In this document: positions 6,001 through 9,000 of the stretch, piece by piece
How the letters are laid out: every line of letters starts with the position of its first letter
Position numbering within the stretch: position 1 is the first letter of the stretch
Source: a virus
Taxonomy: Duplodnaviria; Heunggongvirae; Uroviricota; Caudoviricetes
Strand: one strand, 5' to 3'
Length of the DNA stretch: 17,760 nt
IMG/VR virus record: IMGVR_UViG_2778261423_000004
Location: 1 to 17,760 of that record
Position numbers: made by a program

Positions 6001-9000
6001 TCAGTGTGCGGCTGGCGGCATCGATGGACAGGATGCGTCCGCCGGTCAGGGTCCCGGCATAGTCGTTATCACAGATTTCAATGATGTCACCGGGCGTGTG
6101 CCGCAGCCCCTGTGACCCGAGCGTGAAATCCACCGTCTGCGTTTCCAGCAGTTCGGTCTTTATCACCCACAGTCCGGCACGGTGAGCCTGACCGCGGCTG
6201 GTACAGCCGAACGCGTCCATCTTCAGCAGGTTGCGCCCGTAGCGCAGGATGGCGTCCGGGTCTTCCACCAGTTCCGTGGACGTCTGCCAGCCGTTCTGCG
6301 GGTCAGTGTAATTCACCTCCACCGCCGTGTGCCGGTCCTTCAGGGCACTGAAGCTGTAGCGGAACCCCACGCCGTTATCATCCACCACCACATCGCTGTT
6401 GGTGTACGGCCACACCACATCCGACGGACGGTCCTGAACGAACGTCAGCGTCTGGCCGTTCCATACCGGCATACAGCGCATCGCCGAGCAGAAATCCCCC
6501 AGGACATCCCACACCTTACGCTGCTGTGACAGGTACGCATTAAAGGTCATCCGCGGCTCTGTGCCCCCGAAACCATCCGGGACCGTCTGGTCGCAGTACT
6601 GCCCGATGGCATACAGCGCCCACTTGTCCACATCCGCCGCCCCCAGGCGTTTTCCCATCCCGTAGCGCGGGTGGGTCAGCATGTCCCACAGGCACCAGGC
6701 CGGGTTATTGCTGTATGCCGGTTTCAGACTCCCGTCCCAGATACCGCTGTAGGTGCGTTTTTCCGGGTCATAGTTTGACGGCACCTGAATGATGCGGCCG
6801 CGGATATGGTAGTTCACCACCATCTGCTGGCCACCGAACTGCTCCGCATCCACCTGCAGCCCCACAATGGCCGTGTTCGGGTAGCACTGTTTCACATCGA
6901 TGATTTCGGTGTATGACGACCACAGCGTTCTGTTCTGCAGCTGGTCCGTGGTACTGTCCGCCGTCACCCTGACCACCCGGATGTTAAAGGGCCGCTCAGG
7001 GAGATTATTCAGAATCACCGACGTCAGGTACTGCGAGGTGGTCTTGCCGTTAATGGTGACATCCTTCTCCGTCACCCAGTTACCGTTACGCTCAAGCTGA
7101 ATCAGCAGGCGGACAGAAGAAGGATTACGGTCACCCTTTGAGGTGGTCTCCACCAGTGACTGCACCCCGAAGGTGACCCGCAGACGGTCAATGTTCGCTG
7201 ACGTGATGGTGCGCGTCACCGGCTTTGCCTTCGTCACCTCCACGCCCAGTGCGGTTTCTGCCCCGGAGGACTCAAAGCCTTCCGGCGGTGTCTGCTCCTG
7301 CTCCCCGGCACGCCAGACGGCGGTCACACCGTGTATCACGGGATTACCGTCCGTGTCCGTCAGCGGGGTTTTGTTCACCAGAATACTCTGCAGTCCCTTC
7401 ACCGGACCTTCCACCGGTCCCTCACCAATGGCATCAATCACGCTCATCATCTGCGTGGATTTGAGATTGTCCTTCGCCTCACGCGGTGTGTGCCCCTTGC
7501 CGCCCCCTTTACCCACTCTGTCCCCCTCTCCTGTCTGATGTCTGATGTCTGAATCTGTTTATGCCCAAAAACAACAGGCACCCCGGAGGGTGCCTGTGTC
7601 ATGACGGAATAAAATTTCTGAAATTCTTCACATTTCTGCAAATTGCCTGTAGCCGCAATAATGACGCTGCGTTACTTTTTTGATGCCTGAAAAATAACTC
7701 CATAACGTTAATCTTCATCGTTCTCTCCCGCAGCTCCGCTGACTCTGCGGGATTTTTTTATCCCTTAAACCCGGCCTGATATTTTCTGTCCTCTGCCACC
7801 GATATCCCGCAGCCCCTTCCTGTGAATAAAAATTCTGAATTTATTCACATTTCTGCAAATTACCTGTGGCGCTCATAATCACCATACGTTACAATTCGCC
7901 CGCTGATTACAGGCAATAATCAAAACTACTCCTTAAGGTGACTATTCGTTTCTCCCGTCAATATCCAGGTGTATTACGGGAGATTTTTTACTTCCCCCCT
8001 CAGTATCACGGACATTACTGACGCCGCTCTGTCGCCAGAGACGAAAGCCCGGGATAAATAAAAACTCTGATTTTCTTCACATTTTCCGTCATTCTCCGTG
8101 GCAGAGTGCATTCCGGCAGGTTACAGTTTCTTCGGGTCAATAAAAATAAAACGCCAACAGGTTAGTCAACATCGTTCTCTTCCCGCAGCACGGAGTACTG
8201 CGGGATTTTTTTATCCCCTGAACCCGCATGATGCCTTCTGTCCTCTGCCACCGATATCCGGCCCTCCCTTCCCGTGAATAAAAATTCTGAGTTTATTCAC
8301 ATTTCCGCACACTGACTGTAGTGCTCATAATCACGCTGCGTTACAGTTCATCTGCCAGAATAATGAAAAATTCCTTAAAGTTAATCTTCGTATCTCTTCC
8401 CGCAGCTACAGAGCACTGCGGGATTTTTTTTATTTTTCATCCCCGCCCGATAACCACCACTTTCCCGTCACCGCCCTCATCACGGGTGCTGATGTCCTGG
8501 GATATCCGTCGTGAACCAACCAGCATTTCACCGTAAGGCACCGGCACCGGATTCCCCTGAGCAATCATGTTGTCCAGTGACGAAAAATACGTGTTCTGTT
8601 TACCGTTATCCGTACTTTTGTATTCCGGCGTCTTTGCCTTCGGGGCCAGCATCTGGGCCACACCACCCAGTGCCATTGCAGAGCCCATGGAAAACATGAT
8701 GTTGCTGGCTGCAATACCGATACCCGGCATCCAGATAGCTGCCGCAACCAGCGCAACGCCAAGCACGGCCTGAAACACTCCGCCACTTTTGGCACCTTCT
8801 GCCCGGGGAACCAGATGAATGACATCCCCCGGGTTCAGTGGCTCATGCAGTCGGGGCGATATCTGGTCCGGCGCGGTATCCTCACCGGCAATACGTATCT
8901 GGTACCAGCCTTCGTTCATCTGACGGCGGAATCCCGGCACCTGCAGCGACAGGGCACGGATGGCCTCCGCTGCCGTGTTCACATACAGACTGATGCGGCG

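What the first reader, a model, noticed from the sequence alone, without database searches (positions are those of the whole stretch)
7567..8436. Convergent terminator architecture: the insert is insulated on both sides
The array's last plus-strand terminator (8399-8431) ends 5 nt from the I stop codon. At the other edge a minus-strand hairpin plus T-run (7567-7596) sits between the array and the J ribosome-binding site. Late transcription arriving from I (presumably Q-antiterminated) would read antisense through all four units, while in a lysogen the minus-strand terminator would stop any stray transcription before J. This suggests reciprocal regulation: the units expressed in the lysogenic state and silenced or overridden by late read-through, or conversely antisense interference with J expression.
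Basis: inference. Interest (0 to 1): 0.55.

Follow-up and report, generated by a model that had tools for sequence, protein, structure and literature searches.

The report
Terminators flanking a prophage small-RNA array
Both terminators are real, but they bracket four tandem copies of a known prophage small-RNA gene (PasB/EcOnc22 family) sitting between tail genes I and J, and the terminator in front of J is an old feature of this junction in lambda-like phages rather than part of the insert.

Summary
A canonical intrinsic terminator lies on the late-gene (minus) strand at 7564-7597, about 30 nt upstream of the J ribosome-binding site. The last plus-strand terminator (8398-8431) ends 5 nt from the I stop codon.

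What they bracket is a GC-poor insert holding four diverged tandem genes of the PasB / EcOnc22-24 small-RNA family. These RNAs are Hfq-dependent and are published from EPEC E2348/69 and EHEC Sakai. All four units have their own terminator, not only the last.

The terminator before J is not specific to the insert. Insert-free lambda (57-nt I-J spacer), phage mEpX1 and another PasB-bearing class each carry an unrelated hairpin plus U-run at the same place. It is never duplicated with the units. PasB arrays and sodC are inserted between the I stop and this hairpin.

Both terminators face outward. They stop transcription leaving the insert and do not shield it from incoming late transcription.

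Expression in uninduced cells is supported by published work on orthologues. Reciprocal antisense regulation of J remains untested.

Tandem arrays of one to four diverged units seem unreported. Overall this is an ordinary moron design with a modestly new multi-copy variant.

The parts
7514..7516 (-). J start codon (GTG). The ribosome-binding site AGGAGAGGGGGA lies at about 7521-7532.
   Evidence: ORF 3821-7516. Pfam gives seven gpJ domains. The N-terminus [17 protein letters not shown] looks like lambda J (recalled from my own knowledge).
7564..7597 (-). Late-strand intrinsic terminator just upstream of J: 10-bp stem, tetraloop, then UUGUUUUUGGG.
   Evidence: (-26.3 kcal/mol, z -4.2). It is present at the J-proximal end of every 1-4-unit PasB-type spacer, and 98.6% of cells pair across 14 variants. 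Unrelated hairpins occupy the same position in lambda and mEpX1.
7607..7759 (+). Unit 1 (cluster 8, orthologue of Sakai EcOnc22-24). Upstream element 7607-7635, -10 AATAAT 7657-7662, predicted RNA about 7669-7759, terminator 7726-7759.
   Evidence: nhmmer E 1e-38; alignments; fold. The Sakai Sp15 unit differs at 2 nt in the RNA part.
7824..7989 (+). Unit 2 (cluster 3). -10 CATAAT 7874-7879, predicted RNA about 7886-7989. Its terminator stem is different (CUCCCGU...ACGGGAG) and lies at 7951-7989.
   Evidence: nhmmer E 6e-36; fold -15.2 kcal/mol, z -4.2.
8056..8212 (+). Unit 3 (cluster 6). The upstream element is intact but the -10 is degraded (GTGCAT 8106-8111). Predicted RNA about 8118-8212, terminator 8181-8212.
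   Evidence: nhmmer E 3e-38; alignment; fold z -3.7.
8276..8431 (+). Unit 4 (cluster 10). -10 CATAAT 8326-8331, predicted RNA about 8338-8431. Its terminator (8398-8431) ends 5 nt from the I stop.
   Evidence: nhmmer E 7e-43; fold z -4.3. It is 77% identical to the E2348/69 PasB gene.
8437..9081 (-). Tail assembly gene I. The stop codon is 8437-8439.
   Evidence: Pfam Lambda_tail_I.

Best explanation
The window is the late (head and tail) operon of a lambda-like STEC prophage, read on the minus strand. The I-J junction is 57 nt in lambda. Here it holds a 0.84-kb, GC-poor, moron-type insert.

The insert consists of four diverged tandem genes of the PasB / EcOnc22-24 family of Hfq-dependent small RNAs, transcribed against the late operon. 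Each gene has four parts: a highly conserved 29-bp upstream element (TCTGA-N6-TCACA), a -10 box, an RNA body of about 90-105 nt with a variable anti-Shine-Dalgarno-like stretch (ACUCCUUAA), and its own intrinsic terminator. The four terminators end each small RNA and provide its Hfq-binding 3' hairpin and U-tail. They also stop read-through into the next unit and, for the last one, antisense read-through into I.

The hairpin plus U-run at 7564-7597 is an intrinsic terminator on the late strand. It is a positional feature of the I-J junction of lambda-like phages, and morons are inserted between the I stop and it. During lytic growth, Q-modified polymerase would read through it and through the whole array in antisense. 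Without Q it would stop any non-antiterminated minus-strand transcript before J.

Shown here: the anatomy, the homology, the distribution and the positional conservation. Taken from the literature: expression and Hfq dependence of the orthologues. Inferred: termination activity, read-through by Q, and any cross-talk between the array and the late operon.
For: Gene identities: Pfam.

PasB. It is published at NC_011601 1466261-1466343, minus strand. That is exactly the I-J spacer, antisense to the tail genes. Its 3' end is the last U of the terminator run. It aligns with all four units.

EcOnc22/23/24. These are Hfq-CRAC peaks with an ~85-nt northern band, destabilised in a hfq deletion. They fall in the 240-nt I-J spacers of Sakai Sp15, Sp14 and Sp11. 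Each spacer holds one unit nearly identical to unit 1.

Family and arrays. A unit profile finds 1, 2, 3 or 4 units immediately after the I stop in 81 of 116 I-gene loci, falling into at least 15 sequence clusters. The same 4-unit array is in five IMG/VR contigs, one of them cut after three units, and 80 of 5426 complete E. coli genomes match at least 80% of the 1051-nt query, consistent with the full array.

Terminators. z scores run from -3.3 to -4.3. There are 9 strong sites against 0.18 expected.

The J-proximal hairpin. Four unrelated sequences occupy the same position: lambda-type, PasB-type, the 345-nt class and mEpX1, where it is annotated as a rho-independent terminator. Across 14 PasB-type variants, 98.6% of cells pair. 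There is one compensatory C:G to U:A pair. Seven wobble cells pair only on the late strand, against one cell that would pair only on the other strand.

Moron character. Insert GC is 43.9% against 58-59% in I and J. In a Citrobacter locus a sodC-like gene (my own reading of the sequence) sits between I and a retained lambda-type hairpin.

Operon context. Other strong late-strand terminator-like sites from the simple scan lie between listed ORFs, after E, after J and after lom. That fits an operon that needs Q antitermination.
Against: - No transcript data exist for this four-unit array. Promoters are inferred from a -10 box plus a conserved upstream element; there is no recognisable -35, and unit 3 has a poor -10.
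- The PasB-type hairpin always lies 10 nt from a PasB upstream element and is unrelated in sequence to the lambda-type hairpin. It could therefore have arrived with the first cassette rather than being backbone.
- Covariation within the PasB-type hairpin is weak: 52 of 500 shuffles reach the observed score.
- The sodC class shows no late-strand terminator-like hairpin before J.
- Mapping of the EcOnc22-24 peaks onto the RNA body rests on a coordinate offset of about +128 to +146 between Sakai assembly versions. I estimated this from AgvB at 1.94 Mb only.
Confidence: 0.72

Rival explanations
1. The units are expressed in lysogeny. During lytic growth they are silenced or overridden by Q-antiterminated late read-through. 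Conversely, the array interferes with J expression or with a superinfecting relative, through head-on collision or through pairing of the small RNAs with the I-J segment of late mRNA. This is compatible with the best explanation and adds a function to it.
For: The geometry is as described. The small RNAs are perfectly complementary to the 920-nt untranslated I-J segment of late mRNA. Orthologues are abundant in uninduced cells. There is a precedent for a prophage RNA antisense to late genes that excludes superinfection: STnc6030 in BTP1. The RNA bodies are more variable than the promoter element.
Against: Nothing here tests it. The units overlap no coding sequence and do not overlap the J ribosome-binding site. 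Crude duplex predictions do not single out the J start region among the late genes. PasB has many trans targets in RIL-seq (37 interactions), which points to ordinary trans-acting small-RNA function.
Confidence: 0.2
2. The hairpin before J came in with the first PasB cassette as a built-in outward-facing insulator. It replaced the lambda-type hairpin and is not a backbone element.
For: In every locus that has the PasB-type hairpin, it lies about 10 nt from the upstream element of the J-proximal unit. It shares no sequence with the lambda-type hairpin. The J leader downstream of it also differs from lambda.
Against: It is not part of the repeated unit in 2-4-unit arrays. One PasB-bearing class (345 nt) has a different hairpin. 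The sodC-plus-PasB class shows none, so PasB and this hairpin are separable. Insert-free phages already have a terminator at this spot.
Confidence: 0.2
3. The hairpin before J works mainly as an RNA stability or processing element. It would be a 3' protective stem for the upstream part of the late mRNA, or a nuclease site, and would set the expression ratio between the upstream tail genes and J rather than terminating transcription.
For: Q-modified polymerase is expected to ignore terminators (established knowledge of lambda Q), so a terminator inside the late operon has no obvious lytic role. Similar hairpins follow the major capsid gene and J. Wobble pairs favour an RNA-level function on the late strand.
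Against: All four sequence types have a U-run immediately after the stem. That is needed for termination and not for a protective hairpin. The depositors of mEpX1 annotated it as a terminator.
Confidence: 0.15
4. The two terminator-like elements are chance hairpins with no function.
For: The simple consensus scan finds many weak sites: 26 observed against 16 expected.
Against: Strong sites number 9 against 0.18 expected. z scores are -3.3 to -4.3. The elements are conserved across dozens of loci. The published PasB 3' end lies at the U-run.
Confidence: 0.01

Closest known systems
PasB small RNA of EPEC E2348/69 (Pearl Mizrahi et al. 2021, PMC8550237; Zhu, Shabalina and Storz 2026 preprint, doi 10.64898/2026.05.13.724894)
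   Same: It occupies the same slot (the I-J spacer, antisense to the tail genes) and has the same gene plan: upstream element, -10, an RNA of about 83-98 nt, and the CCCGCAG...CUGCGGG terminator abutting the I stop. The same late-strand hairpin precedes J. The units are 64-77% identical to the PasB gene.
   Different: Here there are four diverged paralogues in tandem (RNA parts 57-75% identical to PasB and 61-73% to each other). The preprint reports a minimum distance of 28 kb between pasB copies, using blastn with word size 28 and over 75% coverage, so tandem arrays of diverged units are not described there.
EcOnc22 / EcOnc23 / EcOnc24 of EHEC O157:H7 Sakai (Tree et al. 2014, PMC4104026, Table S2)
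   Same: These are Hfq-crosslinked RNAs of ~85 nt, destabilised without Hfq, in the I-J spacers of Sp15, Sp14 and Sp11. The unit there is almost identical to unit 1 of the window.
   Different: There is a single unit per prophage. The papers read here do not connect EcOnc22-24 with PasB. Peak-to-gene mapping depends on an assembly-version offset that I estimated.
Lambdoid 'morons' (Juhala et al. 2000, as cited in PMC4104026), for example sodC in the same I-J slot
   Same: It is extra DNA between two late genes that are adjacent in relatives. It has its own promoter and terminator, a different base composition (43.9% against 58% GC) and expression from the prophage.
   Different: The cargo is non-coding and multi-copy, and it is oriented against the late operon.
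AgvB / AsxR anti-sRNAs downstream of PR' (Tree et al. 2014)
   Same: They are prophage-borne, Hfq-bound, short RNAs with a conserved scaffold and a variable targeting part, located at a moron site.
   Different: They sit at a different site (after Q/PR'), have a different sequence, and form convergent pairs. Rfam AgvB and AsxR models do not match the window, whereas AgvB is found in the Sakai control locus.
Intrinsic terminators inside Q-antiterminated late operons, for example the terminator annotated between I and J of phage mEpX1
   Same: A late-strand hairpin plus U-run lies immediately upstream of the J start. Lambda has an unannotated equivalent.
   Different: The stem sequences are unrelated. 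In the window, 0.84 kb of insert separates I from the terminator.
Tandem multicopy small RNAs such as LhrC1-4 of Listeria (recalled from my own knowledge, not checked here)
   Same: Several tandem paralogous small-RNA genes, each with its own promoter and terminator and a C/U-rich stretch able to pair with ribosome-binding sites.
   Different: The sequence and host are unrelated. This is an analogy only.
STnc6030 antisense RNA of Salmonella prophage BTP1 (Owen et al. 2020, PMC7067206)
   Same: It is an RNA expressed from a prophage, antisense to the late structural operon.
   Different: STnc6030 is over 700 nt long, overlaps coding sequence, and is shown to exclude superinfection. No such function is shown for PasB units, which lie in an intergenic spacer.

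Membership tests
PasB / EcOnc22-24 small-RNA family | Gene lies in the I-J spacer of a lambda-like prophage, on the strand opposite to the tail genes | tested here: met
   Window; E2348/69 PasB; Sakai.
PasB / EcOnc22-24 small-RNA family | Sequence similarity to the published PasB gene over promoter, body and terminator | tested here: met
   The profile was built from the four units plus PasB, so self-matches are expected. Independent support comes from pairwise identity of 64-77% to PasB, alignments, and profile hits in 81 of 116 independent I-gene loci.
PasB / EcOnc22-24 small-RNA family | 3' end formed by an intrinsic terminator (hairpin plus U-run) | tested here: met
   All four units fold at -13.9 to -15.2 kcal/mol with z -3.3 to -4.3. 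The published PasB 3' end is the last U of the run. Actual 3' ends of the window units are not measured.
PasB / EcOnc22-24 small-RNA family | Hfq binding and Hfq-dependent stability; expression in uninduced cells | not testable with these tools
   Published for the orthologues only.
Lambdoid moron | Inserted between two late genes that are adjacent in related phages | tested here: met
   The I-J spacer is 57 nt in lambda-type loci and 920 nt here.
Lambdoid moron | Own promoter | tested here: inconclusive
   A -10 box is conserved in 3 of 4 units and the upstream element is nearly invariant. There is no -35 and no hit in two promoter scans.
Lambdoid moron | Own terminator and a base composition different from the flanks | tested here: met
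   GC is 43.9% against 58-59%.
Intrinsic (Rho-independent) terminator, for the element at 7564-7597 | G+C-rich stem, short loop, U-run directly 3' of the stem on the transcribed strand | tested here: met
   10 bp with 7 G-C pairs, a 4-nt loop, then UUGUUUUUGGG. Termination activity itself was not tested.
Bidirectional terminator | U-run after the stem on both strands | tested here: not met
   On the plus strand, 7564-7597 is followed by GUCAUGAC. On the minus strand, the unit-4 hairpin is followed by AAGAGAU.
AgvB / AsxR anti-sRNAs (Rfam RF02702, RF02703) | Match to the Rfam covariance model | tested here: not met
   There is no match at the gathering score, or at E up to 10, in 7450-8500. The AgvB model does find its target in the Sakai control.
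HnrS (EcOnc10-12) | Same locus or sequence | tested here: not met
   EcOnc10 lies between the lysis and terminase genes of Sp12, not in the I-J spacer.
CRP-activated class II promoter (considered for the upstream element) | TGTGA-N6-TCACA site centred near -41.5 | tested here: not met
   The core TCTGA-N6-TCACA matches 9 of 10 positions and is conserved in 27 of the 28 aligned units (the exception reads TATGA). Its centre is about -44.5 relative to the TSS predicted from the -10, 3 bp too far. The site consensus is from my own knowledge. Binding was not tested.

The most novel reading that the evidence does not exclude
The tandem array is a battery of Hfq small RNAs with diversified targeting regions. 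Because each RNA is perfectly complementary to the long untranslated I-J segment of late mRNA, the array would also act in cis. It would attenuate or process late transcripts before J, lom, stf and tfa, or exclude superinfecting relatives that carry matching units. The ancestral I-J terminator would set the boundary. Copy number (1-4) and unit diversity (at least 15 clusters) would then reflect selection on this phage-phage or phage-host interplay.
Probability: 0.12. Interest if true: 0.7.

Novelty: new variant of a known kind. Interest (0 to 1): 0.35.

Why it matters
The analysis identifies an unannotated 0.9-kb 'spacer' in STEC prophages as four genes of an experimentally known small-RNA family. 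It links two published names that the papers read here do not connect (PasB in EPEC and EcOnc22-24 in EHEC). It also shows that the family is larger and more modular than reported: at least 15 sequence types, in arrays of one to four.

For the terminator question itself the result is sobering. The architecture is the normal moron plan placed next to a pre-existing I-J terminator. It should therefore not be read as a dedicated two-sided insulator.

The conserved I-J terminator in lambda-like phages, including lambda itself, is a small unexplained feature that would be easy to test.

Tried and rejected
- **Rfam:** a search of the whole window (gathering score) and of 7450-8500 (E up to 10) gave only chance-level hits.
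- **HnrS/EcOnc10-12:** considered as the identity of the units and rejected, because it lies between the lysis and terminase genes.
- **AgvB/AsxR membership:** rejected.
- **RNAalifold on the full unit alignment:** this produced a meaningless long-range structure, because promoter columns were included and the two terminator types are misaligned. I relied on per-sequence folds instead.
- **Small-RNA pairing with late-gene start regions:** duplex energies were not informative (no correction for intramolecular structure) and J did not stand out.
- **Sigma-70 promoter scans:** two scans did not detect the unit promoters and gave only weak minus-strand candidates. The best is -35 TTGACT at 8169 with a 15-nt spacer. 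I therefore make no claim that a minus-strand transcript arises inside the array.
- **Rho-dependent termination of late-strand transcripts in the spacer:** judged unlikely, because that RNA is G-rich and C-poor (C 17%, G 27%).
- **Literature searches:** no described terminator between lambda I and J was found, and the lambda RefSeq record has no such feature.
- **Small ORFs in the array** (for example 8098-8277 and 8321-8536 on the plus strand): they are not conserved between units and I treat them as spurious.
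Full report
**1. What is in the sequence**

The window carries a lambda-like late operon on the minus strand. In order it encodes major capsid protein E, tape measure H, M, L, K, I (8437-9081), J (3821-7516), Lom, a collagen-repeat side tail fibre and a tail-fibre assembly protein (ORFs; Pfam).

Between the I stop (8437-8439) and the J start (GTG at 7516) lie 920 nt without a credible ORF. Four direct repeats of about 220 nt fill most of this gap.

- **Unit 4 terminator.** The hairpin is 8398-8423 and the U-run is 8424-8431. 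It ends 5 nt from the I stop.
- **Minus-strand terminator.** A 10-bp stem with 7 G-C pairs lies at 7597-7574 and is followed by TGTTTTTGGG (7573-7564). This is about 30 nt upstream of the J ribosome-binding site.

The folds are far better than shuffled sequence. The minus-strand hairpin gives -26.3 kcal/mol (z -4.2) and the unit 4 terminator gives -14.3 kcal/mol (z -4.3). A strict scan finds 9 strong terminator-like sites in the window against 0.18 +/- 0.38 in dinucleotide shuffles. Neither flanking element has a U-run on the opposite strand, so neither is bidirectional.

In fact each of the four units ends in one: 7726-7759, 7951-7989, 8181-8212 and 8398-8431. Unit 2 uses a different stem sequence (CUCCCGU...ACGGGAG) that is likewise followed by a U-run.

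**2. What the units are**

Rfam has no model that matches. The literature does.

*PasB.* PasB is an Hfq-dependent small RNA found by RIL-seq and northern blot in EPEC E2348/69. It is listed at NC_011601 1466261-1466343 on the minus strand. In that genome these coordinates are the I-J spacer, antisense to the tail genes. The PasB terminator abuts the I stop, and its 3' end is the last U of the run. The PasB locus aligns with all four window units from the upstream element to the terminator. Gene identity is 64-77% and RNA-part identity is 57-75%.

*EcOnc22-24.* Three Hfq-CRAC peaks of EHEC Sakai, EcOnc22, 23 and 24, are listed as homologues of each other. EcOnc22 gives an ~85-nt northern band and is destabilised in a hfq deletion. 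All three fall in the 240-nt I-J spacers of prophages Sp15, Sp14 and Sp11, on the strand opposite to the tail genes. Each spacer holds one unit that differs from window unit 1 at two positions of the RNA part.

The published coordinates refer to an older assembly version. From the Rfam AgvB match I estimated an offset of about +137 to +146 at 1.94 Mb, and the chromosome as a whole is 128 nt longer (the older length is from my own knowledge). Either value puts the peaks inside the RNA body of the unit. This step is an estimate, not a proof.

The two names, PasB and EcOnc22-24, are not connected in the papers I read.

**3. The family and its arrays**

I built a profile from the four units plus PasB and searched 116 loci that encode an I homologue. 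It finds units directly after the I stop in 81 of them.

| I-J spacer class | Content |
|---|---|
| 57 nt | lambda type, no unit |
| about 240 nt | one unit |
| about 345 nt | one unit plus a different hairpin |
| about 425 nt | two units |
| about 715 nt | three units |
| about 910-930 nt | four units |
| 854 nt | an antisense sodC-like gene (my own reading of the sequence) followed by the 3' part of a PasB-like RNA |
| 711 nt (Citrobacter) | a sodC-like gene, no unit |

The units fall into at least 15 clusters at 85% identity. The window's array is cluster order 8-3-6-10. It recurs in five IMG/VR contigs, one of them cut after three units, and 80 of 5426 complete E. coli genomes, mostly STEC, match at least 80% of the 1051-nt query, consistent with the full array.

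Within a unit the most conserved part is not the RNA. It is a 29-bp upstream element, AATAAAAATTCTGA-N6-TCACATTT, with 92% column identity. The RNA body scores 41-79%.

A stretch resembling an anti-Shine-Dalgarno sequence (ACUCCUUAA) differs between the four units. It reads ACUCCAUAA, ACUCCUUAAGG, ACGCCAACAGG and AUUCCUUAAAG.

The 2026 preprint on Pas small RNAs used blastn with word size 28 and over 75% coverage. It reports that pasB copies are never closer than 28 kb. Tandem arrays of diverged units therefore appear to be unreported.

**4. The terminator in front of J is not part of the insert**

In every 1-4-unit locus with the PasB-type hairpin, the hairpin occurs once, at the J-proximal end. 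It is never repeated with the units.

More tellingly, the insert-free 57-nt spacer of lambda and its relatives also has a hairpin plus U-run at the same place. It reads AACCGCC-UGCG-GGCGGUU followed by UUUGUCAUUU, and it runs into the J ribosome-binding site. Its sequence is unrelated to the PasB-type hairpin. The lambda RefSeq record does not annotate it.

Two further unrelated hairpins occupy this position.
- Phage mEpX1 is HK022/HK97-like, and its I protein is only 31% identical. Its hairpin, GGCCACC-UUCG-GGUGGC followed by UUUUUU, lies 11 nt before J. The depositors annotated it as a rho-independent terminator.
- The 345-nt class has a 12-bp hairpin of its own.

In the Citrobacter locus the sodC-like gene sits between I and a retained lambda-type hairpin. 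The simplest reading is that a late-strand terminator just before J is an old positional feature of this junction, and that morons land between the I stop and it.

Across 14 variants of the PasB-type hairpin, 98.6% of cells pair, and there is one compensatory C:G to U:A change. Seven wobble cells pair only on the late strand, against one cell that would pair only on the other strand. Variation is too small for a significant covariation test (52 of 500 shuffles reach the observed score).

There are two caveats. The sodC-plus-PasB class (13 loci) shows no such hairpin in the folded 100 nt upstream of J or in a perfect-stem scan of the spacer, so it looks dispensable. The PasB-type hairpin is always 10 nt from a PasB upstream element, so arrival together with the first cassette cannot be excluded.

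**5. How it most likely works**

Each unit is an autonomous gene for an Hfq-dependent small RNA. Its terminator makes the RNA 3' end and the Hfq-binding hairpin and U-tail. It also stops read-through into the next unit or, for unit 4, into the antisense of I.

Both flanking terminators sit on the exit side of their strand. They keep transcription from leaving the insert and do not protect the insert from incoming polymerase. During lytic growth, Q-modified polymerase should pass the I-J terminator and transcribe all four units in antisense. This follows from established properties of lambda Q and is not tested here.

Other strong late-strand terminator-like sites from the simple scan lie between listed ORFs, after E, after J and after lom. 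The I-J terminator is thus one of a series in an operon that depends on antitermination.

The late-strand spacer RNA is G-rich and C-poor (C 17%, G 27%). That makes Rho-dependent termination there unlikely, and it leaves the hairpin as the only evident stop signal.

The promoters are inferred. A -10 box (AATAAT, CATAAT, CATAAT) is present in units 1, 2 and 4. Unit 3 has GTGCAT. No -35 is recognisable.

The upstream element resembles a CRP site (TCTGA-N6-TCACA) but is centred about 3 bp too far upstream for a class II promoter. PasB reads were higher in the non-activating condition than in the activating condition. If those media are LB and glucose-containing DMEM, as I recall from my own knowledge, this would fit catabolite control, but it is only a hint.

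**6. Verdict**

The outward-facing geometry and expression in the lysogenic state hold, the latter from published orthologues. The J-side terminator is probably backbone rather than insert. 'Insulated' applies only to outgoing transcription. Reciprocal antisense regulation is untested.

The known kinds are the PasB/EcOnc22-24 small-RNA family and the lambdoid moron. The multi-copy tandem array of diverged units is a new variant.

Interest is modest. This is not a new mechanism. It is still a useful annotation, it links two published names, and it raises a small open question about why lambda-like phages keep a terminator in front of J.

Noticed in passing
window 7534-7556 (minus strand), between the terminator and the J ribosome-binding site: A 7-nt tandem repeat, CAGACAT, varies in copy number between otherwise near-identical loci. 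There are two copies plus an imperfect third here, one fewer in L003, and four or more in L005 and L029. This changes the length of the J leader.
   Followed up: partly
L021 and 12 similar loci (854-nt I-J spacer); L090 (Citrobacter, 711 nt): The same I-J slot carries an antisense gene that I read as Cu,Zn superoxide dismutase (sodC), from my own reading of the sequence, with its own terminator. In the 854-nt class it is followed by only the 3' two-thirds of a PasB-like RNA, without the usual upstream element. That RNA may therefore use another promoter or derive from the sodC transcript.
   Followed up: partly
window 7607-7635, 7824-7852, 8056-8084, 8276-8304: The 29-bp element upstream of each unit (TCTGA-N6-TCACA flanked by A/T runs) is the best-conserved part of the whole family, at 92% column identity. 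It looks like a CRP site but is about 3 bp out of register for a class II promoter. It also lies where an UP element would be (-62 to -38).
   Followed up: partly
window 8106-8111: Unit 3 has a degraded -10 box (GTGCAT, where related cluster-7 units have TATCAT), although its upstream element and terminator are intact. It may be weakly expressed or decaying. Cluster-2 units in two-unit arrays (L013, L015) lack a -10 altogether and have a weak U-run.
   Followed up: no
window 7754-7897 versus 8206-8349: The unit 1 / unit 2 junction is homologous to the unit 3 / unit 4 junction (79% over 144 nt), while the unit 2 / unit 3 junction is different. This suggests the array grew by duplication or recombination of a two-unit block.
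   Followed up: no
window 15322-15292 and 13632-13605 (minus strand): Two further strong hairpin-plus-U-run sites on the late strand lie inside the U and G/T gene regions rather than between genes.
   Followed up: no
L083, L093-L110 and others (genome-contig hits): Short contigs in assemblies of unrelated organisms (Streptomyces, Pseudomonas, Bradyrhizobium, Enterococcus and others) carry an I-J junction identical to the lambda-type junction. One (L083, labelled Streptomyces) carries a PasB unit. These are most likely lambda or E. coli DNA contamination of those assemblies.
   Followed up: no
L127 (Sakai Sp10, NC_002695.2 1941727-1941981): Rfam finds STnc100 and AgvB directly adjacent on opposite strands. 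This served as a coordinate control. It also shows that published Sakai small-RNA coordinates from 2014 are shifted by roughly 130-150 nt relative to the current RefSeq version.
   Followed up: partly
window 8169-8143 (minus strand): The best sigma-70-like match in the array on the late strand is TTGACT, a 15-nt spacer, then TATTTT, inside unit 3. If active, it would give an antisense transcript across units 2 and 1 that ends at the I-J terminator. The spacer is short and the match is weak.
   Followed up: no
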